Shown here piece after piece: positions 19,524 to 29,025 of a DNA stretch of 32,000 bases. A model generated the notes under the pieces. That model ran no database searches. It saw only the letters and a program-made list of their open reading frames with translations, and was not told the DNA's origin. The position numbers were made by a program, and so were the translations under genes. This DNA is from Dubosiella newyorkensis (lineage in GTDB: Bacteria > Bacillota_I > Bacilli_A > Erysipelotrichales > Erysipelotrichaceae), in NCBI RefSeq assembly GCF_001945605.1, contig NZ_MPKA01000034.1, positions 6,759-38,758 on the forward strand, in the 5' to 3' direction. Positions within the stretch are counted from its first letter, which is position 1. Every line of letters begins with the position of its first letter.

Positions 19524-20098
19524 AAATTATCCTCCTTATATGTCCATAGATTCCATAGATAAAGTGCGATGATGATCGCCCAAAATGAGCGACCAAACAA
19601 TACAAATGTCAAAAACAATTGAGTCCAAGCGATCTCGTTTCGAGCGCCTGAAAAAAAGTAGATAAACAAACCTCCGATAAGCAAGCTTCCGCAGCCGGCT
19701 AGAAAAGAATCAAGGATCAAAAACAAGGAAACGATCCATATCGTCTGTACAAGACAGATCAGCCCTTGGTCTTTGAAGCTTTTTATTTGAAATGGAGGAA
19801 TGTGAAAGGGCCAGATTGTTTGATAAACAATAGATATCCCTAGTCCATACGCTAGACAGATCGAAACTTCCATCGCTTCGGGTGCTATGCTTGCGATCAT
19901 CAAAAGCATTCCTATTCCAAACAAGGAATAGGAGCGCAAGACCTTTTCTCCGATCAACATTCCTGAACTACAATATAGAAGGATTTGTCTTAGGTCAGGA
20001 ACTTTGAGGAGATGAGGCGCGTGATTTACGAAAACGACAAAGCCCAAAATACAAAAAAGAAAAGAAAGAAACCACTGTCGGGTTCTTTGAGTTTGCAT
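19520..20098 (-). CDS. Hypothetical polytopic membrane protein (192 aa)
   Basis: Has ~6 hydrophobic spans and is the first gene of the operon. An AAGGGGA SD is present. No family recognised. Confidence 0.7.
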   Translation of the reverse strand: MQTQRTRQWFLSFLFCILGFVVFVNHAPHLLKVPDLRQILLYCSSGMLIGEKVLRSYSLFGIGMLLMIASIAPEAMEVSICLAYGLGISIVYQTIWPFHIPPFQIKSFKDQGLICLVQTIWIVSLFLILDSFLAGCGSLLIGGLFIYFFSGARNEIAWTQLFLTFVLFGRSFWAIIIALYLWNLWTYKEDNL

Positions 20099-20125
20099 AC
20101 CAATTTCCCCTTATTGAACGGAGTT

Positions 20126-20134
20126 ATTTTATCA
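20126..20134 (-). promoter_or_regulatory. Extended -10 element (TGATAAAAT) upstream of membrane protein-LOG-TCS operon
   Basis: Minus strand reads GTTCATGATAAAATAACTCCG. It lies just downstream of the lgt terminator. Confidence 0.35.
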
Positions 20135-20145
20135 TGAACTCAGAG

Positions 20146-20167
20146 AAAAAGAGGGTTTAATCCCTCT
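20146..20167 (-). terminator. Rho-independent terminator at the end of lgt
   Basis: Minus strand has AGAGGG-ATTAAA-CCCTCT followed by TTTTT. The lgt stop codon lies in the loop. Confidence 0.55.
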
Positions 20168-20921
20168 TTTCTCGCTTTTTTAATATAAACCATAAAATCA
20201 GCGCACTTGCGAACAAGAGCAACGAAATGATTTGCGATGTGGAAAAGCTTCCAATTTCCCCCCGAACAAGATCGCCTCGAAAATATTCGATGATAAATCG
20301 TCCTATACTATACGCAAACAAATACCATAGGCCAACTTCTCCATGGAACGTATTCTTTTTCTCTTTGACTAGCCAGATCAATACGAAGAAAAGCAAGAAG
20401 TCAAAAGCTGAAGAAATCAACTGCGTCGGAAATAAAGGGATTCCCGCTGGAGCGAGGGAGCCTTCTGGAAAGACAAGTCCAATCGGAAGATGGGTCTCTA
20501 CTCCATAACAGCATCCTGCAAAGAAACAGCCTAATCGGCCAAACCCTTGGGCTAAAGCGACGGAAGGGATGATCAAATCGACTTGTTCTAAAAAATTAAG
20601 ATGATACTTTTTACAATAAAGATAGCCTCCAAGCAATCCTCCAAGGATTCCTCCATATACGACCCAACCACTCACTAGATCGAACAAGATCGCTGGATCC
20701 TGCAAAACTTCTTGAAATCGTGTGATACAATAAAGCAGTTTGGCTCCGATAAACCCTGTGATCACGAAAAAGATCGCCATAGGTTCTAGATGAGATATGT
20801 CGATACCGAGTTTTTTTCCTCTTTTTTCGGTAACAAAGAATGCGGATATTATACCGATCACATAAAACAGTCCATATGTATGGGCCGTGAATGGTCCTAT
20901 CGTAAATAAATCATTATACAT
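20157..20921 (-). CDS. lgt: Prolipoprotein (phosphatidylglycerol) diacylglyceryl transferase
   Basis: Lgt features FTAHTYGLFYVIGI, GGILGG and GRLGCFFAGCCYG. The start is chosen at ATG 20921 (MYNDLF...), preceded by an AGAGGTG SD, rather than the track start at 20975. Confidence 0.9.
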   Translation of the reverse strand: MYNDLFTIGPFTAHTYGLFYVIGIISAFFVTEKRGKKLGIDISHLEPMAIFFVITGFIGAKLLYCITRFQEVLQDPAILFDLVSGWVVYGGILGGLLGGYLYCKKYHLNFLEQVDLIIPSVALAQGFGRLGCFFAGCCYGVETHLPIGLVFPEGSLAPAGIPLFPTQLISSAFDFLLFFVLIWLVKEKKNTFHGEVGLWYLFAYSIGRFIIEYFRGDLVRGEIGSFSTSQIISLLLFASALILWFILKKREKRD

Positions 20922-21029
20922 TGATTCACCTCTTTTCGATGATTCAAATTTTACAGAATTGAATTTATAAAGCAAGCAGTTTTTATTTCCTCTTCGATTT
21001 ACGTATCATTATTAGAAAGGGAGTCTATT

Positions 21030-21953
21030 ATGCATTCAAACAATCGATCGTCTATTTTATATGCTGGTATCTTTTTGTTTCTTTATTCGCTGTTCGCTTT
21101 GATCTTGATGCTTCGATCCTCGCTGTTTCCTGGTCTTACCATTTTACAAGTTTCTATCGTAGTCGTTTTAAGTGATTTTACGATCCTTCTTTTCGCCAAG
21201 AATCATAAGATCGCATGGATTTTTTATGGATTGATCCTGATCTTGATCAGTGTGTTCATTTCACGTCTTTACATTGTAGACCAAGAACTGAAAGTTTTGC
21301 AACCAAGTATAGCAAACCAATTTGAAATTCGTACGCTTTACGCAAAAACCCAAGATCCTGTATTAAATACGATTGGCTTTCTTAGCCAAGATGAGAAGGA
21401 ATTAGAGGAACGTTCTGCTCTGTTTTCAAATATTGAACGTATTTCTTTCTCTTCAAAGAAAGAGTTATTCGATGCGCTTGATCAAAATAAGATCCAGGGT
21501 GTTGTGATCGATCCTTCTCAAAGCGAAAAAGGACTTGTTGCTTTGGAGAGCTTCGCCTATTCGATCCCTGAATTTGGGCCCGTGAAAAATGTGGACCTTC
21601 TCAAGAATATATCCACGATCTTGATCAAAGATAAAAATGGATTCAGCTTGTTGCAGATCGATCCGAGTCATCATTCACTTCTAGTGAGAAAGCACTTAAG
21701 CTCTTTTGATCAAAAGAGCTGTCAAAATAGCTTAGGCTCGATGCAGGCTTGCAGCGAAGAAGAACTTGCTCTTCCGATCAATTATGCGATCGATCTTAAG
21801 ATCGAAGAGCTTGATTTTTTCCAGTGGCAAAGGATCCCGTTATTTTGGAATCCTAATCTTGATCAGGAAAACGTATTAACGAATATGAGCGCTTCTTCTA
21901 TGAAAGATCTGTTTTTATTGCCGCTCGATACGTACTCTAATATCACACGGTAA
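21030..21953 (+). CDS. Hypothetical membrane protein (3 N-terminal TMs plus ~220-aa extracytoplasmic domain)
   Basis: 307-aa ORF with an AAAGGGAG SD. Its GATC density resembles the surrounding core genes. No family recognised. Confidence 0.7.
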   Translation: MHSNNRSSILYAGIFLFLYSLFALILMLRSSLFPGLTILQVSIVVVLSDFTILLFAKNHKIAWIFYGLILILISVFISRLYIVDQELKVLQPSIANQFEIRTLYAKTQDPVLNTIGFLSQDEKELEERSALFSNIERISFSSKKELFDALDQNKIQGVVIDPSQSEKGLVALESFAYSIPEFGPVKNVDLLKNISTILIKDKNGFSLLQIDPSHHSLLVRKHLSSFDQKSCQNSLGSMQACSEEELALPINYAIDLKIEELDFFQWQRIPLFWNPNLDQENVLTNMSASSMKDLFLLPLDTYSNITR

Positions 21954-22042
21954 ATGAATCGGCGCGAAATTCGACAATTTCATAGGAACGATCTCGATGG
22001 AAGCTTGCTGTTGTTTCATTTTTAAAATTTATTTCAACAAAG

Positions 22043-22067
22043 AAAGTGGATGTGAACCACTTTTTTT
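22043..22067 (+). terminator. Rho-independent terminator
   Basis: AAAGTGG-ATGTGAA-CCACTTT with a T7 run, ~90 nt downstream of the 21030-21953 gene. Confidence 0.6.
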
Positions 22068-22201
22068 ATATTCATAATTTGAAACAATGGATTTTAGGGA
22101 TGTTTTTCTTTTATCTATAAGTTAAAGAATACATTATTATAAGATTTTATAATTGGATGCAACAGTTTAATGATATAATCGTGGAGAAGGATGGTGGTTT
22201 A

Positions 22202-23366
22202 ATGATCGATATTCCAAAAGATGAAAAAGTACAGGTTGGAAAAGCCATCGATTTTTTACGAAAGAAAGAGTTTAAGAAAAATCCTTCTTTTAAAATCGAA
22301 TGCTTTATCGAAACCATTTGTTCTAAAGCCACCTATGTCAAGCTTAGAAAAATCCCATTAAAGGAAAGTGAGATTTATGATTCTCTTTTAGCAAAATTGA
22401 ATCTTATTTATCCTTATGATCCTCGAGAGCAGACGAAGCTTTTTCATACTGAGAAACTCATGGAAGATGCATTCATCCATAGAGACCCCGACGAAAAAAA
22501 AGCTTCTAGATTCATTGATCAACTATTATTCTACTTCCCATTCGGTCTATGACCGGCTAAAGTATATTGCTTTTAAGGATTCCGCTATGTCTGTTCCTGA
22601 ATTACTGGCGATTTACGAAATTGTCCAATCGCCGATCAGAGAAGTGATCATGAACAGGATCATTGACGTTCTTGAAAGCATGCCTCCTTCTGCAATGTCT
22701 GACTATATTCAAAGCCGTCTTCATTTCCATACGATTCGCAATCAGATCGATTACCTGTTTCTGATTATTCGAAACAAGCATTATTATCAAGCTGTCGCTT
22801 TGTGCGAATCTTTATTACGTTCTGCTACTCTCCCGATCGATCGAGCAAAGATCCGGATTGCCAAACTAATTTTGCTTCACCAAATTGACCCTCGCCATTT
22901 TGATTTGGAAGCTCAAGCTCTTTCTAACGATCCTTCCTTCCCTTTGGTCAGAGAGGATTGGATCCATATTTGCGCTTTTCATGCCTACAATCAAAACGAT
23001 TATGATCGAGCCCAGCTGCTTTTTGAAGAAGAGATCAAAAACCAAAAAACTTTTTTTCCTGCTATTTTGTTTCTTGCCCATATGCATGATCCCAAAATAG
23101 AATTTAGTCAAGAAGTTTTTTGTCGTTACAACATCCAAGATTATCCAGTCGCATATCAACACTTATACACATATTTCAAAATGAAATTTTCGCACAGTTC
23201 TTTCTCTATCCTCGAAAGTTACTTATGGAACATTTGCCGAAAAGAAATCAAAGAGTTTTATCCAGAAAATATCATCATCCGATTGATTCACGATGAACTG
23301 GAATGGATCAGCGAAAATACAGGAAACAGGACAAAACTATATATGTTCCATCAACAGTTTGATTAA
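22202..23366 (+). pseudogene. RRNPP/Rgg-PlcR-like transcriptional regulator (XRE-type HTH plus TPR-like helical repeats), split by a frameshift at an A8 tract
   Basis: Track ORFs 22157-22552 (HTH-like VGKAIDFLRKKEF...ICSKATYVKLRK) and 22416-23366 (all-helical, repeat-like) overlap in different frames. They switch at A8 (22494-22501). Removing one A gives a continuous ...FIHRDPDEKKLLDSLINYYSTSHS... The start is either ATG 22157 or ATG 22202 (GGAGAAGG SD). Confidence 0.6.
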
Positions 23367-23472
23367 ACTTTTTTTATAAAATCATATAATTTATATGTTT
23401 TATTTTTTTCCGTTCAATTTTTTTCCTATTCATTTTTTTCTTTTAGAATCAAATTGTAAGGAGGAAAGAAAA

Positions 23473-23655
23473 ATGGAATTAGTTTTTATCGGCGATAGTT
23501 TAAAGACAAATATTGTTAATGTTGCTTGTCAGTATATATTTAGTAAGAAATGCCCCTTATTATATATAAAAAATCCAAACTATCGATGTAATAGAAAGAA
23601 AATGATTGATGATTTCAGTGAAATAGTGTTTGCGTTGTTTGATTCGGAGAATTAA
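23473..23655 (+). CDS. Small hypothetical protein/peptide (60 aa)
   Basis: A strong SD (AAGGAGG) lies 8 nt upstream of ATG 23473. The stop lies 2 nt before the ABC exporter ATG. Sequence: MELVFIGDSLKTNIVNVACQYIFSKKCPLLYIKNPNYRCNRKKMIDDFSEIVFALFDSEN. The track ORF start at 23395 lies in T-rich promoter-like DNA without an SD. Confidence 0.45.
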   Translation: MELVFIGDSLKTNIVNVACQYIFSKKCPLLYIKNPNYRCNRKKMIDDFSEIVFALFDSEN

Positions 23656-23657
23656 AC

Positions 23658-25253
23658 ATGAAAGTGCTTAATATTCGGAGAATACAAATATTCACCTTGT
23701 TTTTTTCTATTCTAGATTTGCTGTGTTTATACGGATTCATCCAGGCGATCCAGATCTTTATGGATCGTTTGATCGCAGGCCATCGAATTGACCAAAAAGA
23801 CCTACTAATTTTTTTAAGTTTACTGAGCGGAATGATACTTTGTGGTTTGTGCTCTCAATATGGATTTAATTTGCTACCCGTACTAGGCAAGAAAAAGCTG
23901 ATCATTCAATATGAAACTCAGCTTATGAAAGAGGATCATTCTTTCTTCGACCAGCACTCTACAGCCTTTCTAATGTCACTATTTCAAAATGAAATCAGTC
24001 TTCTAGGTCAACAAAAAGCGATATTTCCGGTCGTTTTTCTCTATCAAAGCATTGCGCTGACGGTTGGTACTGCTTTTTTGCTGATTAACGAATGGAGACT
24101 AGCCCTTGTCCTATTCGCCATTATTGGATTTTGTTTTGTGCTCACTCGTATATTGTCAAAAAAAATCGCAGACAATACCCAGAAAGTTTATAAAGAAAAG
24201 AACAATCTCTTTCAGGTTCTCCACGAAGATATCACAATGCATCGGCTAATCCGTTTTTTAAATAAAGAAGATTATTTCTCTTTGCGTTTTAGAAAGGTAC
24301 TAAATGATCGACTGATCCCGATTGAAAAGAAACAAGCAAATCTTTCTACACAGTATATCACGATCTATTCTGTCCTTTCTCGAGCTCTTCCTCTTTTAGG
24401 CGCTGGAATCGGATTGATCTTCATGTCGTTAGAGGGGATGGAGCCCGGAAAAATTCTTTCCACTTACGCGCTGATTTCTTTGATTCAGGAACCGATCATG
24501 CAGCTGGCAGAAACAAGGACCCAAAAAAATACGATCAATACTCTTCAAGAAGCGATCAAACAAGTTTTTATACAACATCAAAAAGACAGGAGAGTTGTTG
24601 ATTCGTTCGGATCTATCCAAAAAACCGATATCCAGATCGAACAGTTTCAATATCCTGATTCTTCAGTGATTCTGACTGGTCTTTGTTTTTCGATCCTGCG
24701 TGGTCAACATACAAAAATTGCCGGACCTAGCGGGGTAGGAAAAAGTACATTGATGGAGTTGTTGATGGGAGTCCAAGGTGGAAGAAATACCCATATCTTG
24801 TTCAATGAAACAGAAAACTCAATGTTTTCCCGAAAATGGTATTCACAACACATTTTGATGGTTGACCAAAAACCGAAGATTTTCAAAATGTCTATTCTTG
24901 AAAATATCACATTGGGAGATACGTTTTCCAAAATCGATCTTGATGAGATCTTGTATACTTGTATCCTTCAGAACATTATTGATGAACATCAAGATCAGAT
25001 TGTCGATGATGAAAATGGATTAAGTCTTGGGCAGGCTCAACGAGTATCGATCGCCCGAATGCTTATTCGTAAGCCTGATGTTCTGATACTTGACGAACCG
25101 GTAAGCGCCCTCGATGAAGTCACGACATCTTTGATGATTGATCGTCTCAAACAATTTATTGAACGTTATCATATCACTTTGATCATCTCATCCCATAATC
25201 CAGCTATAAACACTCTATGTCTACAAACGATCGACTTGAAGAAAAACAACTGA
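23658..25253 (+). CDS. ABC exporter, fused permease plus ATPase half-transporter (ABCB/type I exporter fold), no peptidase domain
   Basis: 531 aa. The N-terminal ~300 aa have ~6 TMs. Walker A GPSGVGKST, signature LSLGQAQR, Walker B VLILDEPVSALD, H-loop SSHN. Confidence 0.85.
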   Translation: MKVLNIRRIQIFTLFFSILDLLCLYGFIQAIQIFMDRLIAGHRIDQKDLLIFLSLLSGMILCGLCSQYGFNLLPVLGKKKLIIQYETQLMKEDHSFFDQHSTAFLMSLFQNEISLLGQQKAIFPVVFLYQSIALTVGTAFLLINEWRLALVLFAIIGFCFVLTRILSKKIADNTQKVYKEKNNLFQVLHEDITMHRLIRFLNKEDYFSLRFRKVLNDRLIPIEKKQANLSTQYITIYSVLSRALPLLGAGIGLIFMSLEGMEPGKILSTYALISLIQEPIMQLAETRTQKNTINTLQEAIKQVFIQHQKDRRVVDSFGSIQKTDIQIEQFQYPDSSVILTGLCFSILRGQHTKIAGPSGVGKSTLMELLMGVQGGRNTHILFNETENSMFSRKWYSQHILMVDQKPKIFKMSILENITLGDTFSKIDLDEILYTCILQNIIDEHQDQIVDDENGLSLGQAQRVSIARMLIRKPDVLILDEPVSALDEVTTSLMIDRLKQFIERYHITLIISSHNPAINTLCLQTIDLKKNN

Positions 25254-25274
25254 TAGCGAACTATGCCTATACTA

Positions 25275-25298
25275 AGCAGAGAATTTCTCTGCTTTTTT
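25275..25298 (+). terminator. Rho-independent terminator after ABC exporter
   Basis: AGCAGAGA-ATT-TCTCTGCT followed by TTTTT. Confidence 0.65.
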
Positions 25299-25374
25299 AA
25301 ATAATATCTGCGCATGATCGCTTAAAAATATGATTATCTTAGGTATCTATAGATTAGACCTTAAAACTCGAAAC

Positions 25375-25398
25375 AAAAAAAGAAGTGTTTCCACTTCT
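25375..25398 (-). terminator. Rho-independent terminator after yneF-like gene (end of parE-parC operon)
   Basis: Minus strand has AGAAGTG-GAAA-CACTTCT followed by TTTTTTT. Confidence 0.7.
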
Positions 25399-25411
25399 AA
25401 AGCTGATTGTT

Positions 25412-25633
25412 TTATCGTTTCGAATTTGCATTCACGGATTTCATGATCTGACGAATCTGCGCCTCGCTTGGTTTACGTCCCATCTGCAGGAACATAGCGC
25501 GAATCATCTTTTCATTGATCGGAGGGTTTTCCTTTAATTCTTTTTCGAATTTTTTACGAGTGAAATAGAATGTAAGGATCCCACCAATAAGTGCTCCCAC
25601 GAGCGTGAATCCTACTGAAGACCAGAAATTCAT
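25412..25633 (-). CDS. yneF: UPF0154 family small membrane protein (YneF-like)
   Basis: One N-terminal TM followed by NPPINEKMIRAMFLQMGRKPSEAQIRQIMKSV, the hallmark of UPF0154. The start is taken at ATG 25633 (MNFWSS...). The track start at 25654 is a GTG. Confidence 0.8.
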   Translation of the reverse strand: MNFWSSVGFTLVGALIGGILTFYFTRKKFEKELKENPPINEKMIRAMFLQMGRKPSEAQIRQIMKSVNANSKR

Positions 25634-25637
25634 ATAG

Positions 25638-26543
25638 TTACCCCATTTCTTCACTCGATATTTTACTCTTTTTTAAAGGGTTTGACAACCGCAAACCTTT
25701 CGCTTCCACAAGAAGAATCGATACGAAAATCAAGCCTCCGCCAAGATACATCGTCCACGTTTTAACCTCATGGAAGACTAAGATCGCAAAAAAATTCGCG
25801 AAAAGACATTCTGTCGACAACAATAAGCTCGCACTCGAGGCGTCCGTATACTTTTGCGCCCACGTCTGCAAGAAATAAGCCACACCCGTCGCAAAAAGAA
25901 TGCTGTAGGCCATGCTTAAAACCGCCTTGATCGAAACGATTTCCGGCCATGAATCCACCATCAAAGCGCATGGGATCGAAAGAAGCGCGGCTACACTCAT
26001 TTGACAAGCATTCACAGCGATCGGATCCGCCTCTTTGGAAGCTTTATCGTTCGCGATGATTTGAAACGCGAAGAAAAAAGCACATCCTAACGAAAACCAA
26101 TCGCCATTTCGAAAACGAAGGCCTTGTTCGGAACAAGACATCAATAAAATCCCAGCTAGACAAAGGAAGCTGGCAAGACATTGAATCCCTCTTGGCTTTT
26201 TATGAAAGAGCATCCACATTAAATACGGAACCAATACGACATTGACAGACGTTAGAAACGCATTGGTTCCTGCATCAGAATTTTTAAGTCCGATCGTCTG
26301 CAATGTGAATGCCATAAAAAGAAAGAAGCCAGAAATCACGCTATAACACAATCCCTTTTTAGAGATCGATGGCTTAAAGAACCAAAAGATCATCCAATAC
26401 AAAAGAGAAGCTCCCGAAAAGCGGAGCGCTAAAGTCGTGAAAAAAGGAAAGGTTTCTAAGGCGCTTGCCGTTGCGATAAAACCAAATCCCCAAATCATCG
26501 CTGTCAACAAACAGGCAATATTTGCCCACTCTTTCTTATTCAT
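25638..26543 (-). CDS. DMT-superfamily transporter (EamA domain pair)
   Basis: 10-TM protein. The start is chosen at [26 protein letters not shown] (ATG 26543), which overlaps the parC stop (ATGAATAA). The track ORF extends upstream into parC. Confidence 0.8.
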   Translation of the reverse strand: MNKKEWANIACLLTAMIWGFGFIATASALETFPFFTTLALRFSGASLLYWMIFWFFKPSISKKGLCYSVISGFFLFMAFTLQTIGLKNSDAGTNAFLTSVNVVLVPYLMWMLFHKKPRGIQCLASFLCLAGILLMSCSEQGLRFRNGDWFSLGCAFFFAFQIIANDKASKEADPIAVNACQMSVAALLSIPCALMVDSWPEIVSIKAVLSMAYSILFATGVAYFLQTWAQKYTDASSASLLLSTECLFANFFAILVFHEVKTWTMYLGGGLIFVSILLVEAKGLRLSNPLKKSKISSEEMG

Positions 26544-29025
26544 CTTTAAAAAGTAACTCCTGAATATATGGATCTTTCTTTTCCCATAACCCTTCTTTGA
26601 TTTTCGGCATTTCCTTGATCCATTGTTCTCCTTGAAGAGGACCATATGGCAAAGAATACGTTTGACTCGCGTTCATGATCGGAACTTCGTGACTTTTGAT
26701 CACTTTCTTCTCATCTTCTTCATAAAGAATATGGTCCTTTTCGCAGTCAAGAAGCGTCAAAATATGGCCAGGATTGGATTTGATCGCTTTATAAAGTCGA
26801 TTCCCTTTTGCTGGTCTTGAAGCTTTCGCAAATTCATCCACATGCATTCGCTTCATTTTTCCCTCTTTCAAAAAGACGATCCATTGCTGGGCAATAGGAG
26901 AAAGCGCAAAAGCGGCTAATTGATCTTGGCTTGCAAAATTTATTCCCTTGACCCCTTTTGTCTTCAATCCTGTTTCTGGAATATCTAAGATCGAATACTG
27001 CAAGCCAAAGCCTTGAAGACTAGCAAGATACACTTGATCGACATCCGAATACGAGATCTCAGCTTGGATGAGAGCATCTTCGCTTCCTACTTTCATGCAT
27101 ACCATTTCCTTATTCATCCGATTGACTTCGAAAGAAGATAAGCAAGAGCGCTTGATAAATCCAGAACGAGTCGCCATCACGATCTGTACATCCTCTCTAA
27201 AGACATCCACAATATAGGCGGATATGATCTTTTCATTGGCTTCTATACGAAGATAGTTCGAAAGATGGGTTCCGATATCTTTCCATTTTTTCTCCTCGAT
27301 TTGATGGATCGGAATATATCCATAGGTCCCTCGGTCGGTGAAAAACAACAACGTTTCCCGTGTATTCGCTTCCCCCTGGCTGACGATGATATCTTCTTCT
27401 TTATGTCCAGAAAGCGGTTCTGTGCTTGCGTTGTAGGAACGCATCGAACTTCGCTTCACATACCCATCTTGGCTGATCGAGACCATCACTTGTTCGCTTG
27501 GAATCATCGCAAGCGGATCGATCACGATCTCTTCCACTTCTTTTTCAATGATCGAACGGCGCTTCGTTGGAAAAAGAGTGTTGATCTCTTTAAATTCTGC
27601 GATCAAAACTTGATCTCTGACCTTTTTATCGGTAATGATCATATGGAGCCGATCCACTTCTTTTTTTAGCTCTTTGAGTTCATTTTTTAATTCCAGGACA
27701 TCTGTGTTCGTTAAACGATACAAACGCATCGATACGATGGCTTCTGCTTGCGCCTCGCTAAACGCAAAACGATCGATCAAATTTTGTTTCGCGTCTTTTT
27801 TATCTTTACTCTTTCGAATGATGTGGATCACTTCATCAAGCACAGATAAAGCTTTGATCAAACCCTCTAAAATATGTTGCCGGTCGCTTTTCTTTTTCCA
27901 GTCATATTTACTTCTTCGAAGAACGACTTCTTCGCGATGATCTAAGAAGGCATCCAACGCTTGGATCAATGACAATTGAACAGGTGATTTATGAACGATC
28001 GCGATCATATTGTAGTTGAAGGAAATCTGCAGATCCGTATTTTTCAATAAATAATTCAAGACGAGTTGTTCATTTTGATCATTTTTGAGATCGATCACGA
28101 TTTTAAGACCATTTCGATCGCTTTCATCCCGAACATCTAAGATCCCATCGATGCTTTTGTTGATCCGGATCTCGTCGATTTTTTTTACAAGCGACGATTT
28201 AATCACATCATATGGGATCTCGGTGACAACGATTTGCTTGATCGTTTTCGTCTTCGCAAAATGCGTCTTAGAACGAATGATCACCTTTCCTTTCCCACTT
28301 GAAAAAGCTTGATGGATCCCATCGATCCCCATCACGATCCCGCCTGTAGGAAAATCCGGACCTTTAACGATTTTCATCAAAGAATCCAGATCGCAATCTG
28401 GATGCTGTAAACGATAGATACAGGCTTCAACGATTTCATTGAGGTTATGTGGTGGGATATTCGTCGCATATCCTGCCGCAATTCCTGCGATCCCATTGAT
28501 CAAAAGATTAGGAAAGCGGGCTGGCAAGACGGTCGGTTCCATTTTCTCATCCGAAAAATTGGGCGTCCATTCTACCGTGTCCTTATCGATATCTTCCAAT
28601 AAAAAATTGGCTAGATGCGACAAACGAGCTTCTGTATATCGCATAGCCGCTGCTGGATCATCGTCGATCGAACCATTGTTTCCTTGCATATCGACAAGAG
28701 GGATCGTCGTCTTCCAATTTTGCGAAAGCCTCACCATCGCATCGTATACCGAACCATCCCCATGCGGATGATAGTTACCAATAACGTTTCCGACCGTCTT
28801 AGCAGACTTATGATACGAACGATCGTACGTATTTTTGCTTTCGTTCATGGCGAATAAAATACGCCGTTGAACCGGTTTTAGACCATCTCGAGCATCCGGA
28901 AGCGCCCGCTCTTGAATGATATATTTAGAATATCGCGCGAATCGCTCCGCCATGATGTCTTCTAGCGTATTTTGACGGATTCCTTTGATTTCTTGAGAAA
29001 ATGCTTCATCTTTCGTTTTGCTCAC
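26536..29025 (-). CDS. parC: DNA topoisomerase IV subunit A
   Basis: ParC-type N-terminus [32 protein letters not shown] (PVQRR rather than the GyrA PVHRR). [34 protein letters not shown]. It sits downstream of parE and near plsY and yneF, as in Bacillus/Streptococcus. Confidence 0.9.

What the first reader, a model, noticed from the sequence alone, without database searches (positions are those of the whole stretch)
21954..25411. Compositionally distinct three-gene insertion: RRNPP/Rgg-like regulator, SD-driven 60-aa ORF and coupled ABC exporter
Between the core membrane-protein gene (ends 21953) and the yneF/parC operon terminator lies a self-contained plus-strand block with its own terminators at 22043-22067 and 25275-25298.

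- **Content:** an HTH plus helical-repeat regulator of the RRNPP/Rgg/PlcR type, a 106-nt T-rich promoter-like spacer, a 60-aa ORF with a consensus AAGGAGG SD, and 2 nt later a 531-aa TMD-NBD ABC exporter.
- **Precedent:** regulator plus small peptide gene plus exporter is the canonical layout of Gram-positive peptide quorum-sensing and bacteriocin/RiPP export loci. Here there is no C39 peptidase domain, no modification enzyme and no double-glycine leader, so it does not fit a described class.
- **Composition:** the block looks AT-richer by eye. My hand counts give GATC about 1 per 105 nt (22021-23700) and 1 per 68 nt (23701-25260), against about 1 per 45 nt in sampled core stretches. That is consistent with horizontal acquisition.
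Basis: partly seen in the sequence, partly recalled or inferred. Interest (0 to 1): 0.7.

Follow-up and report, generated by a model that had tools for sequence, protein, structure and literature searches.

The report
Decayed radical-SAM peptide gene cluster
The "three-gene insertion" is the broken remains of a peptide natural-product (RiPP) gene cluster in the mouse-gut bacterium Dubosiella newyorkensis: the 60-aa ORF is a deletion scar that fuses a 22-aa precursor-peptide gene to the tail of a lost radical-SAM enzyme gene, and the regulator is frameshifted.

Summary
The regulator is split by an A8 run at 22494-22501. A 106-nt T-rich spacer follows, then an AAGGAGG-driven 60-aa ORF (23473-23655) and a 531-aa ABC exporter (23658-25253).

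Other Dubosiella newyorkensis strains carry, at the same locus, an intact regulator, a 22-aa ORF (MELVFIGDSLKTNIVNVVCQIK), a terminator-like hairpin, a 421-aa radical SAM/SPASM peptide maturase and the ABC gene. The window has 12 nt where those strains have 1227 nt. Its 60-aa ORF is therefore precursor codons 1-20, four junction codons and maturase codons 386-421. It is a scar, not a new peptide gene.

The regulator belongs to a small family with no Pfam or NCBIfam model. It has an XRE-like HTH followed by a TPR-like superhelix. It sat next to an ABCB-type exporter in all nine pairs examined, with no conserved peptide gene.

Only the precursor/maturase cassette looks foreign (27% GC, 1 GATC in 1266 nt). 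The regulator and ABC genes are close to host composition. The A-run is A6, A7 or A8 in different strains.

Verdict: a degenerate radical-SAM RiPP cluster with a non-Rgg, RRNPP-like regulator.

The parts
22043..22063 (.). Hairpin followed by a T-run. It is the terminator of the upstream 307-aa gene, so it is flank and not part of the cluster.
   Evidence: terminator scan. Homology with IS-bearing strains continues through it to 22109.
22202..22552 (+). 5' fragment of the regulator gene. It encodes 116 aa: native residues 1-100, including the XRE-like HTH, then 16 out-of-frame residues.
   Evidence: called as 116 aa in six independent assemblies. The intact 387-aa form is P0001, 99% identical.
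22494..22501 (+). A8 homopolymer, the frameshift site. It is A7 in intact alleles and A6 in one further strain.
   Evidence: An A7 tract is conserved at this position in four lineages.
22502..23366 (+). Rest of the regulator (TPR-like superhelix domain), in the +1 frame relative to the 5' fragment. Gene callers report a 259-aa ORF from 22587.
   Evidence: AF2 model with pLDDT 94. One canonical TPR motif at residues ~252-280.
23367..23472 (+). 106-nt T-rich promoter region. It contains a 15-nt palindrome CATATAATTTATATG (23383-23397), the box CCGTTCAATTTTT (23410-23422), whose core is conserved across species, a -10-like TAGAAT (23444-23449) and the SD AAGGAGG (23458-23464).
   Evidence: Alignment A3 of seven loci; coordinates; no Rfam family.
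23473..23531 (+). Remnant of the RiPP precursor gene: codons 1-20 of the 22-aa MELVFIGDSLKTNIVNVVCQIK. The window has A at residue 18.
   Evidence: Homology to L028/L032 ends at 23531. Sequences read.
23532..23543 (+). 12 nt at the deletion junction that match nothing. They stand in place of 1227 nt in the rSAM allele.
   Evidence: No match with up to 4 mismatches in or near the deleted segment.
23545..23655 (+). 3' remnant of the radical SAM/SPASM maturase gene: codons 386-421 plus the stop.
   Evidence: Matches the C-terminus of the 421-aa rSAM protein of L028 at 35 of 36 residues (K33 for N394). Family-model and C. tetani alignments of that protein reach residues 401-408.
23658..25253 (+). 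ABCB-type (type IV) TMD-NBD half-transporter, 531 aa, apparently intact.
   Evidence: PF00664 and PF00005. Generic ABCB/MsbA/PCAT1-like matches. Orthologues 59-81% identical sit next to every Dubosiella regulator homologue.
25274..25294 (+). Intrinsic terminator of the operon. The convergent yneF terminator is at 25381-25398 on the minus strand.

Best explanation
The block is a degenerate copy of a radical-SAM RiPP biosynthetic operon of Dubosiella newyorkensis.

The version that keeps the maturase (other strains, same locus) reads, in order:
- a 387-aa regulator with an XRE-like HTH and a TPR-like superhelix;
- a T-rich promoter;
- a strong SD and a 22-aa precursor, MELVFIGDSLKTNIVNVVCQIK;
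- a leaky terminator hairpin;
- a 421-aa radical SAM/SPASM maturase;
- an ABC half-transporter.

Inferred mechanism:
- The regulator binds the promoter region and controls the operon in response to a ligand bound by its TPR domain, probably a peptide and possibly the product itself.
- The maturase cross-links the precursor, most likely through its single Cys19. The N16-x-x-C19 motif suggests a thioether.
- The ABC dimer exports the product.

Shown for the window strain:
- A deletion of about 1.2 kb removed the end of the precursor gene, the hairpin and maturase codons 1-385. What remains is an in-frame 60-aa fusion ORF that inherited the precursor's SD and the maturase's close junction with the ABC gene (stop and ABC ATG 2 nt apart).
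- An extra A (A8 instead of A7) truncates the regulator after its HTH.
- This strain therefore cannot make the modified peptide.

Shown more widely: regulator plus ABC is an older two-gene module. The low-GC precursor/maturase cassette sits between its SD and the ABC start codon.
For: Deletion scar:
- Window and L028/L032 are 99.4-99.6% identical over 21000-23531 and 23544-26000. L028 has 1227 nt where the window has 12 nt.
- L028 reads SD, ATG, 22-aa ORF, stop, hairpin, then a 421-aa ORF ending ...KKCPLLYINNPNYRCNRKKMIDDFSEIVFALFDSEN, then TAAAC and the ABC ATG. The hairpin is called terminator-like.

Maturase identity:
- CX3CX2C at residues 87-94 and nine C-terminal cysteines.
- NCBIfam matches to CefB (8e-45), TIGR04463, PapB, FlmE/OhkG and SCIFF maturase models. 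All are radical SAM/SPASM peptide maturases and all matches are below the equivalog cut-offs.
- Pfam Radical_SAM.
- A 33%-identical homologue on C. tetani plasmids lies beside an ABC transporter and a peptidase.

Regulator:
- Eight close homologues, all 386-388 aa except one 304-aa fragment.
- Only 40 representatives among 1.84 billion proteins.
- AF2 model with pLDDT 94 and pTM 0.88, all-helical.
- The best bacterial Foldseek matches are AimR, NprR and Rap, with TM 0.4-0.47.
- A TPR motif is detected by profile.
- The N-terminus aligns in register with the PlcR HTH (E 0.0025).

Regulator-ABC linkage:
- Found in 9 of 9 pairs examined: six Dubosiella lineages in different genomic contexts, L027, and two divergent pairs in L025.

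Frameshift is real:
- A8 occurs in an NCBI assembly and five Logan assemblies (from at least two studies, by accession) that are 100% identical.
- 259-aa fragments are on about 63 contigs, including RefSeq entries.
- A7 is found in nine other loci and A6 in L031.

Composition:
- The cassette has GC 0.27 and 1 GATC in 1266 nt, against 0.37-0.38 for the regulator and ABC genes.

Layout precedent:
- Streptococcal RaS-RiPP operons have a QS regulator, precursor, RaS enzyme and transporter. NxxcB makes a Cys-Asn beta-thioether (PMC9389541).
Against: - No expression, DNA-binding or chemistry data exist for any allele.
- The HTH assignment rests on weak statistics: hhalign probability 12%, Pfam HTH_31 at E 0.003 in one member, and a PDB profile search with E 0.7.
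- Structural similarity to RRNPP proteins is no better than to generic TPR proteins.
- The 22-aa ORF is called a precursor from position and SD only.
- The NxxC motif could be chance.
- Every rSAM-bearing allele sequenced (L028, L032, L034) has a 1-nt deletion that truncates the ABC gene. No fully intact haplotype was seen, so the cluster may be non-functional in the whole species.
- Whether the cassette was inserted into the two-gene module, or lost cleanly from the other lineages, is not resolved.
Confidence: 0.8

Rival explanations
1. This is a functional, novel three-gene module in which the 60-aa protein is the exported signal or bacteriocin. The RRNPP-like regulator controls it, and the coupled ABC transporter secretes it without modification.
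For: - Strong SD, and the stop lies 2 nt before the ABC ATG.
- The 129-nt species-specific part of the ORF is open only in this frame; 1.2% of shuffles are open.
- The ORF is called as a gene and is conserved in many assemblies, with only a V/A difference at residue 18.
Against: - The ORF is a chimera of two different genes joined by a deletion. That explains the SD, the close junction with the ABC gene and the open frame without any selection.
- It is absent from all other lineages. Four have the SD leading straight into the ABC gene, and L010 has only a 23-aa remnant of the maturase tail.
- It has no signal or leader features.
- The regulator is frameshifted in this strain.
Confidence: 0.05
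2. The regulator/ABC pair is a substrate-sensing efflux or immunity module that works independently of the RiPP. On this view it is the ancestral function and the only selected one here. The TPR domain senses an incoming peptide or small molecule, and the regulator induces the exporter that pumps it out. Strains that lost the maturase keep the pair as immunity-only loci.
For: - The pair is conserved without any precursor or maturase in L007, L009, L012, L013/L019, L027 and L025, including in divergent orientation, which is typical of sensor/efflux pairs.
- The maturase was lost twice independently, in the window allele and in L010, while the ABC gene stayed intact.
- ABC differences between strains are conservative (5 synonymous, 4 non-synonymous).
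Against: - The regulator is itself frameshifted in about a third of D. newyorkensis contigs. The window copy also has A at the invariant E317.
- The ABC gene is frameshifted in the rSAM alleles.
- No substrate is known.
- This view is compatible with the main explanation rather than exclusive of it.
Confidence: 0.3
3. The A-run in the regulator is a phase-variable (contingency) switch that turns the operon on and off within populations. It would then not be a one-off pseudogenising mutation.
For: - Three tract lengths (A6, A7, A8) occur in different strains at the same site. These are two independent out-of-frame alleles on different backgrounds.
- An A7 tract is conserved in four diverged lineages although the codons could vary.
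Against: - The A8 lineage is a fixed clone, 100% identical over 7 kb in six assemblies.
- That clone also carries E317A at an otherwise invariant residue.
- A tract of 7-8 nt is short for efficient slippage.
- No within-sample heterogeneity data were available.
Confidence: 0.2
4. The small ORF is a regulatory leader peptide (uORF). It would control ABC expression by ribosome-mediated attenuation or translational coupling, as bmrB does for bmrCD in Bacillus subtilis (comparison recalled from memory, not checked here).
For: - The ORF is closely followed by an ABC exporter gene, and the strongest SD sits on the upstream ORF.
Against: - There is no terminator or anti-terminator structure between the ORF and the ABC gene in the window.
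- The 2-nt junction with the ABC gene is inherited from the maturase-ABC gene boundary.
- Other lineages have no uORF.
- Rfam finds nothing.
Confidence: 0.05

Closest known systems
Streptococcal RaS-RiPP operons under shp/rgg quorum sensing (streptide str, tryglysin wgk, the NxxC cluster; PMC9389541)
   Same: - Same gene order in the rSAM allele: a cytoplasmic HTH plus helical-repeat regulator, a short precursor, one radical SAM/SPASM enzyme and a transporter.
- The precursor carries an N-x-x-C motif like the NxxcA substrates.
   Different: - The regulator is not an Rgg. It has no Rgg/MutR model hit, is about 100 aa longer, and belongs to a family with no model.
- No shp-like gene was found.
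- The transporter has no peptidase domain.
- The host is an Erysipelotrichaceae gut commensal.
- The window copy lacks the enzyme and has a truncated regulator.
Radical SAM/SPASM thioether maturases (CefB, TIGR04463 family, PapB ranthipeptide maturase, SCIFF maturase)
   Same: - CX3CX2C motif and a cysteine-rich SPASM C-terminus.
- Full-length alignments to these models at E 1e-15 to 8e-45.
   Different: - All scores are far below the equivalog cut-offs (153 against 600 bits for CefB).
- The precursor has one cysteine, not many.
- The chemistry is untested.
RRNPP receptors (NprR, AimR, PlcR, Rap)
   Same: - N-terminal XRE-like HTH followed by a TPR-like superhelix, about 390 aa, similar in size to the solved AimR chains (382-390 residues).
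- These are the best bacterial Foldseek matches (TM 0.40-0.47).
- The N-terminus aligns in register with the PlcR HTH.
   Different: - E-values are not significant, and generic TPR proteins score equally well.
- No adjacent secreted-peptide gene is conserved in the family.
- The conserved partner is an ABC exporter, which is not a feature of classical RRNPP loci.
ABCB-type half-transporters (MsbA, PglK, the core of PCAT1)
   Same: - TMD-NBD order, with PF00664 and PF00005.
- Intact Walker A, an LSGGQ-like signature (LSLGQ), Walker B and H-loop motifs, read directly from the sequence.
   Different: - No C39 peptidase domain.
- No equivalog (best 139 bits against cut-offs of 600-875).
- Substrate unknown.

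Membership tests
Radical-SAM RiPP (RaS-RiPP) biosynthetic cluster | A radical SAM enzyme with CX3CX2C and a SPASM/twitch auxiliary-cluster domain is encoded in the cluster. | tested here: not met
   In the window only codons 386-421 survive, at 23545-23655. The feature is met in the sister allele at the same locus (L028/L032/L034: 421 aa, CX3CX2C at 87-94, nine C-terminal Cys, rSAM/SPASM maturase models at E down to 8e-45).
Radical-SAM RiPP (RaS-RiPP) biosynthetic cluster | A short precursor-peptide ORF lies immediately upstream of the maturase. | tested here: inconclusive
   A 22-aa ORF with the strongest SD in the locus, followed by a terminator-like hairpin, directly precedes the rSAM gene in L028. 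In the window its first 20 codons are fused to the maturase tail. No evidence of modification is available.
Radical-SAM RiPP (RaS-RiPP) biosynthetic cluster | A dedicated transporter sits in the same operon. | tested here: met
   The ABC gene starts 2 nt after the maturase (or remnant) stop and has PF00664 and PF00005.
Rgg/MutR/GadR regulators with an SHP pheromone | Match to Rgg family models, plus an adjacent shp gene. | tested here: not met
   No Pfam or NCBIfam hit for the regulator at E up to 0.1-1. No conserved small ORF in the spacers of the family loci read, on either strand where checked.
RRNPP peptide receptors | A C-terminal TPR-like peptide-binding superhelix homologous to NprR, PlcR, Rap or AimR. 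| tested here: inconclusive
RRNPP peptide receptors | An N-terminal XRE-type HTH DNA-binding domain. | tested here: inconclusive
   hhalign aligns family positions 17-77 to PlcR residues 5-59 in register, with E 0.0025 but probability 12%. One member hits HTH_31 at E 0.0034. The N-terminal profile against PDB gives an HTH cro/C1 protein at E 0.74.
RRNPP peptide receptors | A cognate secreted signalling peptide is encoded next to the receptor. | tested here: not met
   Eight of nine regulator-ABC pairs have no small ORF. The only adjacent peptide gene, in D. newyorkensis, is the RiPP precursor or its remnant.
RRNPP peptide receptors | The peptide binds in the TPR groove after re-import by Opp. 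| not testable with these tools
   This needs biochemistry and genetics.
Peptidase-containing ABC transporters (PCAT, C39 type) | An N-terminal C39 peptidase domain, with a double-glycine leader on the substrate. | tested here: not met
   The protein starts directly with the TMD. The most complete alignment to a peptidase-containing transporter model starts at model position 148, and the others at 173 or later. There is no GG motif in the precursor.
Phase-variable contingency locus | A homopolymer inside the ORF whose length varies among strains. | tested here: met
   A6, A7 and A8 at the same site.
Phase-variable contingency locus | Reversible switching within a clonal population. | not testable with these tools
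   This needs read-level or amplicon data. The A8 lineage looks like a fixed clone.

The most novel reading that the evidence does not exclude
The HTH-TPR protein and its ABC partner form a previously undescribed, self-contained peptide-sensing and export module, a new RRNPP-like branch with about 40 representatives and no model in Pfam or NCBIfam. In D. newyorkensis this module captured a foreign precursor/radical-SAM cassette between its SD and the ABC start codon. The modified peptide became both the exported product and the regulator's ligand. The A6/A7/A8 tract, the maturase deletion and the ABC frameshift would then give producer, immune-only and silent strains that coexist in the mouse gut.
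Probability: 0.2. Interest if true: 0.7.

Novelty: new variant of a known kind. Interest (0 to 1): 0.45.

Why it matters
- It turns an apparent 'new class' of peptide locus into a testable one: a short thioether-type RiPP candidate from Dubosiella newyorkensis, a mouse-gut commensal, with a defined 22-aa precursor and a single maturase.
- It shows that a well-formed ORF with a strong SD can be a deletion scar. That is a caution for small-protein discovery.
- It exposes a small regulator family with no existing model that always sits next to an ABC exporter.
- It documents several natural knock-out alleles (maturase deletion, regulator A6/A8, ABC -1) in public assemblies. These could be used as natural genetics for the cluster's function.

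Tried and rejected
- Pfam and NCBIfam scans of the regulator and the 60-aa ORF found nothing.
- Rfam on 21900-25500 found nothing.
- Foldseek against PDB, with both the pLDDT-80 and the pLDDT-94 model, gave no hit at E of 1e-3 or better. Foldseek against viral structures gave nothing useful.
- The N-terminal profile against PDB gave only an E 0.74 HTH hit.
- I looked for a donor of the 129-nt 'insertion' within the window and the loci fetched by then, and found none. The explanation came only from the allele look-up.
- I looked for conserved small ORFs in the spacers of L007, L009 and L025. There were none; one 23-aa ORF in L025 is just the complement of the ABC start.
- I considered a leader-peptide/attenuation model, a leaderless bacteriocin and a GDSL-hydrolase fragment (because of 'VFIGDS'). 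All were dropped once the ORF proved to be a precursor-maturase fusion.
- Family-wide locus scans with broad alignments failed for lack of conserved words. Narrower scans gave only four extra loci.
- An empty-site test was not possible, because the left-flank 307-aa gene is species-specific.
- tblastn of the regulator family against plasmids and phages found no match.

Full report
**What is in the window**

- A regulator-like gene is split between two frames, 22202-22552 and then on to 23366.
- A 106-nt T-rich spacer follows (23367-23472).
- AAGGAGG lies at 23458-23464, and a 60-aa ORF runs from 23473 to 23655.
- Two nucleotides later a 531-aa ABC half-transporter begins (23658-25253). It has PF00664 and PF00005 and no C39 domain.
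- A plus-strand terminator lies at 25274-25294.
- The two regulator frames join if one A is removed from the A8 run at 22494-22501.

The hairpin at 22043-22063 terminates the upstream 307-aa gene. It lies in flank sequence, so it is not a boundary of the block.

**Composition**

The 'core' figure of 1 per 45 nt is not: the flanks have 1/61 and 1/70.
- Per-kb counts across the window range from 9 to 27, and the block's 10-13 per kb fall inside that range.
- GC is 0.354 in the block against 0.41-0.42 in the flanks. The only strong outlier is 23367-23657 (GC 0.24, no GATC).
- The regulator (GC 0.366, GATC 1/76) and ABC gene (GC 0.380, GATC 1/69) look like host DNA.
- In every other host examined, the regulator-ABC module is up to 11 GC points below its flanks (except L010's 492-nt left flank) and tracks host GC from 0.22 to 0.50. 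That points to an intrinsic bias rather than recent transfer.

**Organism and population**

- The flanking 307-aa protein is named Dubosiella newyorkensis in public sources. No homologue below 93% identity was found, and the named hits are D. newyorkensis.
- The window sequence from 20000 to 27000 is 100% identical to an NCBI assembly (GCA_041448535.1) and to several independent Logan assemblies, all with A8. The frameshift is therefore real and not a sequencing error.
- Other strains carry A7 and an intact 387-aa protein (P0001, 99% identical) at the same locus. One strain carries A6 (L031).
- In the 90% cluster, intact forms are on about 108 contigs and 259-aa fragments on about 63.
- The window allele also has Ala at Glu317, a residue invariant in all eight close homologues.

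**The regulator family**

- A word-indexed search found eight proteins, all from Dubosiella-like sources.
- An exhaustive HMM search of 1.84 billion representatives found only 40 at E of 1e-3 or better.
- Pfam and NCBIfam give nothing for the window protein.
- With a 28-sequence alignment, AlphaFold gives a confident all-helical model (pLDDT 94, pTM 0.88).
- Foldseek against PDB gives no hit at E of 1e-3 or better. AimR, NprR and Rap are the best bacterial matches (TM 0.40-0.47), but generic TPR proteins score equally well.
- The family profile hits consensus TPR proteins through one motif, at residues ~252-280. One member hits Pfam TPR_1 at 6e-8 and another HTH_31 at 3e-3.
- hhalign places the conserved N-terminus (G..I...RK...F.I..FI.GICSK.TY.KL.KG..KESEIYD.LL.KLGL) in register with the HTH of PlcR (2qfc). 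The E-value is 0.0025 and the probability 12%.

So the architecture, an XRE-like HTH followed by a TPR-like superhelix, is supported. Membership of Rgg is rejected, and membership of RRNPP is unproven.

**The conserved partner is the ABC exporter, not a peptide gene**

- In the divergent Dubosiella homologues, the regulator is followed about 105 nt later by an ABC_membrane/ABC_tran gene 59-81% identical to the window's. These are P0002 (78% identical), P0003/P0005/M10-2 (about 60%), P0006 (61%) and P0007/D. muris (52%).
- Counting the window, the pair occupies five different genomic contexts.
- A distant member (L027) has the same layout, with an 86-nt spacer.
- A 25%-GC contig (L025) has two tandem pairs in divergent orientation.
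- Aligning the spacers shows a conserved T-rich core (TTTTT[CT][CG]GTT[CT]A[AC]TTTT), a -10-like TA[GAT]AAT and the SD.
- In L007, L009, L012 and L013 that SD leads straight into the ABC start codon.
- Only L010 has an extra 23-aa ORF, and only D. newyorkensis has the 60-aa ORF.

**The decisive result**

Looking up the window's YneF protein returned the same locus from other D. newyorkensis strains.
- Eleven of the 25 contigs read (L028, L032 and nine similar) have, between the 307-aa gene and yneF, a regulator, a 421-aa Radical_SAM protein and an ABC gene. L034, fetched later, has the same layout.
- Reading L028 gives this order after the regulator stop: the same 106-nt spacer and SD; ATG and a 22-aa ORF, MELVFIGDSLKTNIVNVVCQIK, with its stop; a terminator-like hairpin; then the rSAM ORF.
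- The rSAM ORF ends ...CEDKKCPLLYINNPNYRCNRKKMIDDFSEIVFALFDSEN, followed by TAAAC and the ABC ATG.
- The window is 99.4-99.6% identical to L028/L032 on both sides. It has 12 nt (23532-23543) where they have 1227 nt.

The 60-aa ORF is therefore precursor codons 1-20, four junction codons (YIFS) and maturase codons 386-421. This accounts for three of its features without invoking function:
- its strong SD, which is the precursor's;
- its 2-nt junction with the ABC gene, which is the maturase-ABC boundary;
- its improbably open frame (1.2% of shuffles), because it is built from two coding fragments.

L010's 23-aa ORF (MIDDFAEILFVLFDSEN...) corresponds to maturase codons 405-421. It is a second, independent and larger deletion in another species.

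**Direction of the event**

The shared 36 codons belong to the maturase.
- Family-model alignments reach residues 401-404, and the C. tetani homologue aligns to residue 408.
- Two of the C-terminal cysteines, Cys388 and Cys400, fall inside the shared segment.

The full-length gene is therefore ancestral to the 60-aa ORF.

**The maturase**

- It has CX3CX2C at residues 87-94 and nine C-terminal cysteines.
- Pfam assigns Radical_SAM.
- NCBIfam matches are all radical SAM/SPASM peptide maturases: CefB (8e-45), TIGR04463, PapB, FlmE/OhkG, geopeptide, Clo7bot and SCIFF. All are well below the equivalog cut-offs.
- A 33%-identical homologue on Clostridium tetani plasmids sits beside an ABC transporter and an S41 peptidase.
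- The precursor has a single Cys, in an N16-V-V-C19 context. In streptococcal NxxC clusters, NxxcB makes a Cys-Asn beta-thioether (PMC9389541). This is a lead, not a test.
- The layout of regulator, precursor, RaS enzyme and transporter is that of streptococcal RaS-RiPP operons under shp/rgg (same paper), with a different kind of regulator.

**Origin of the pieces**

- The precursor/maturase cassette has GC 0.27 and one GATC in 1266 nt, in a genome where GATC occurs about every 64 nt.
- The regulator (GC 0.368) and ABC gene (GC 0.379) are host-like.
- The SD in front of the precursor is homologous to the SD in front of the ABC gene in cassette-free lineages.
- The simplest reading is that a foreign cassette was inserted between the SD and the ABC start of an older regulator-ABC module, before D. 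newyorkensis and the L010 organism split.
- Clean loss in the other lineages is not excluded.

**State of the cluster in the species**

Every haplotype seen carries at least one lesion.
- The rSAM alleles (L028, L032, L034) have a 1-nt deletion (CATCCAGG to CATCAGG). It truncates the ABC gene to a 37-aa stub plus a 497-aa ORF that lacks the start of TM1.
- The deletion alleles have an intact ABC gene and a regulator with A7, A8 (the window) or A6.

The window strain cannot make the modified peptide. Its regulator retains only the HTH region.

**Mechanism: shown and inferred**

Shown:
- the gene content and its lesions;
- the origin of the 60-aa ORF as a deletion scar;
- the family-wide regulator-ABC linkage;
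- the foreign composition of the cassette.

Inferred:
- the regulator binds the conserved promoter region and controls the operon in response to a ligand in its TPR domain;
- the rSAM enzyme cross-links the 22-aa peptide at Cys19;
- the ABC dimer exports the product;
- the hairpin sets the ratio of precursor to enzyme.

**Verdict**

This is a degenerate member of a known kind, a radical-SAM RiPP cluster. It has an unusual regulator from a family with no existing model, and informative natural knock-out alleles.

Noticed in passing
whole window 1-32000; L028 7944-9209: GATC is strongly over-represented across the window: 497 observed against 116 expected from base composition. It is also the most over-represented of all 256 tetramers against a second-order expectation (ratio 1.47). 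The rSAM cassette of the sister allele has only 1 GATC in 1266 nt. GATC density may be a useful native-versus-foreign marker in this genome. The cause of the enrichment is unexplained.
   Followed up: partly
window 22109/22110; L021-L023 from 8081 to the contig ends: In the commonest D. newyorkensis lineage (flank protein P0051, 522 collection blocks), homology to the window stops at 22109. New sequence follows (GAGAGTGTAAAATATTTTGTGTAAATAGG...), and all 24 contigs read end within about 30-120 nt. This looks like a multi-copy element (IS) inserted just upstream of the regulator promoter.
   Followed up: partly
L028 7828-7941, L032, L034 (corresponds to window ~23740): All three sequenced rSAM-bearing alleles carry the same 1-nt deletion in ABC codon 29. 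All maturase-deleted alleles have an intact ABC gene. No haplotype with everything intact was seen, and the lesions are reciprocal.
   Followed up: partly
window 22494-22501; L031: The regulator's A-tract is A8 in the window clone, A7 in most strains and A6 in L031. These are two independent frameshift alleles at one homopolymer, and the tract is conserved as A7 in four diverged lineages.
   Followed up: partly
window 23383-23397: A perfect 7-1-7 palindrome, CATATAATTTATATG, lies in the promoter spacer about 50 nt upstream of the -10-like element. It is a candidate operator. It is present in the D. newyorkensis alleles read (window, L016, L028) but not conserved in other species.
   Followed up: partly
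L025 635-7287: A 25%-GC metagenomic contig carries two tandem paralogous pairs, ABC on the minus strand and regulator on the plus strand. The regulators are 60% identical to each other and the ABCs 64%. This shows duplication of the two-gene module as a unit.
   Followed up: partly
window 21030-21953: The left-flank 307-aa predicted membrane protein has no Pfam or NCBIfam family. Every homologue found was at least 93% identical, and the named ones are D. newyorkensis. It is a species-specific orphan next to the cluster.
   Followed up: no
window regulator codon 317 (~23153): The window's regulator has Ala where all eight close homologues have Glu (P[IV]EYQH). This is consistent with relaxed constraint after the frameshift.
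   Followed up: partly
L036 (C. tetani plasmid NZ_CP115449.1, 25258-34508): The closest plasmid-borne homologue of the maturase (33% identity) sits beside an ABC transporter, an S41 peptidase and two small hypothetical ORFs (77 and 49 aa). It is probably an uncharacterised RiPP cluster on C. tetani plasmids.
   Followed up: no
L001 18163-20465 (downstream of plsY; may lie beyond the window's end): An IS3-type element (HTH_Tnp_1 plus rve) and a weak ComK-like ORF lie a few kb beyond parE/plsY in the window's genome.
   Followed up: no
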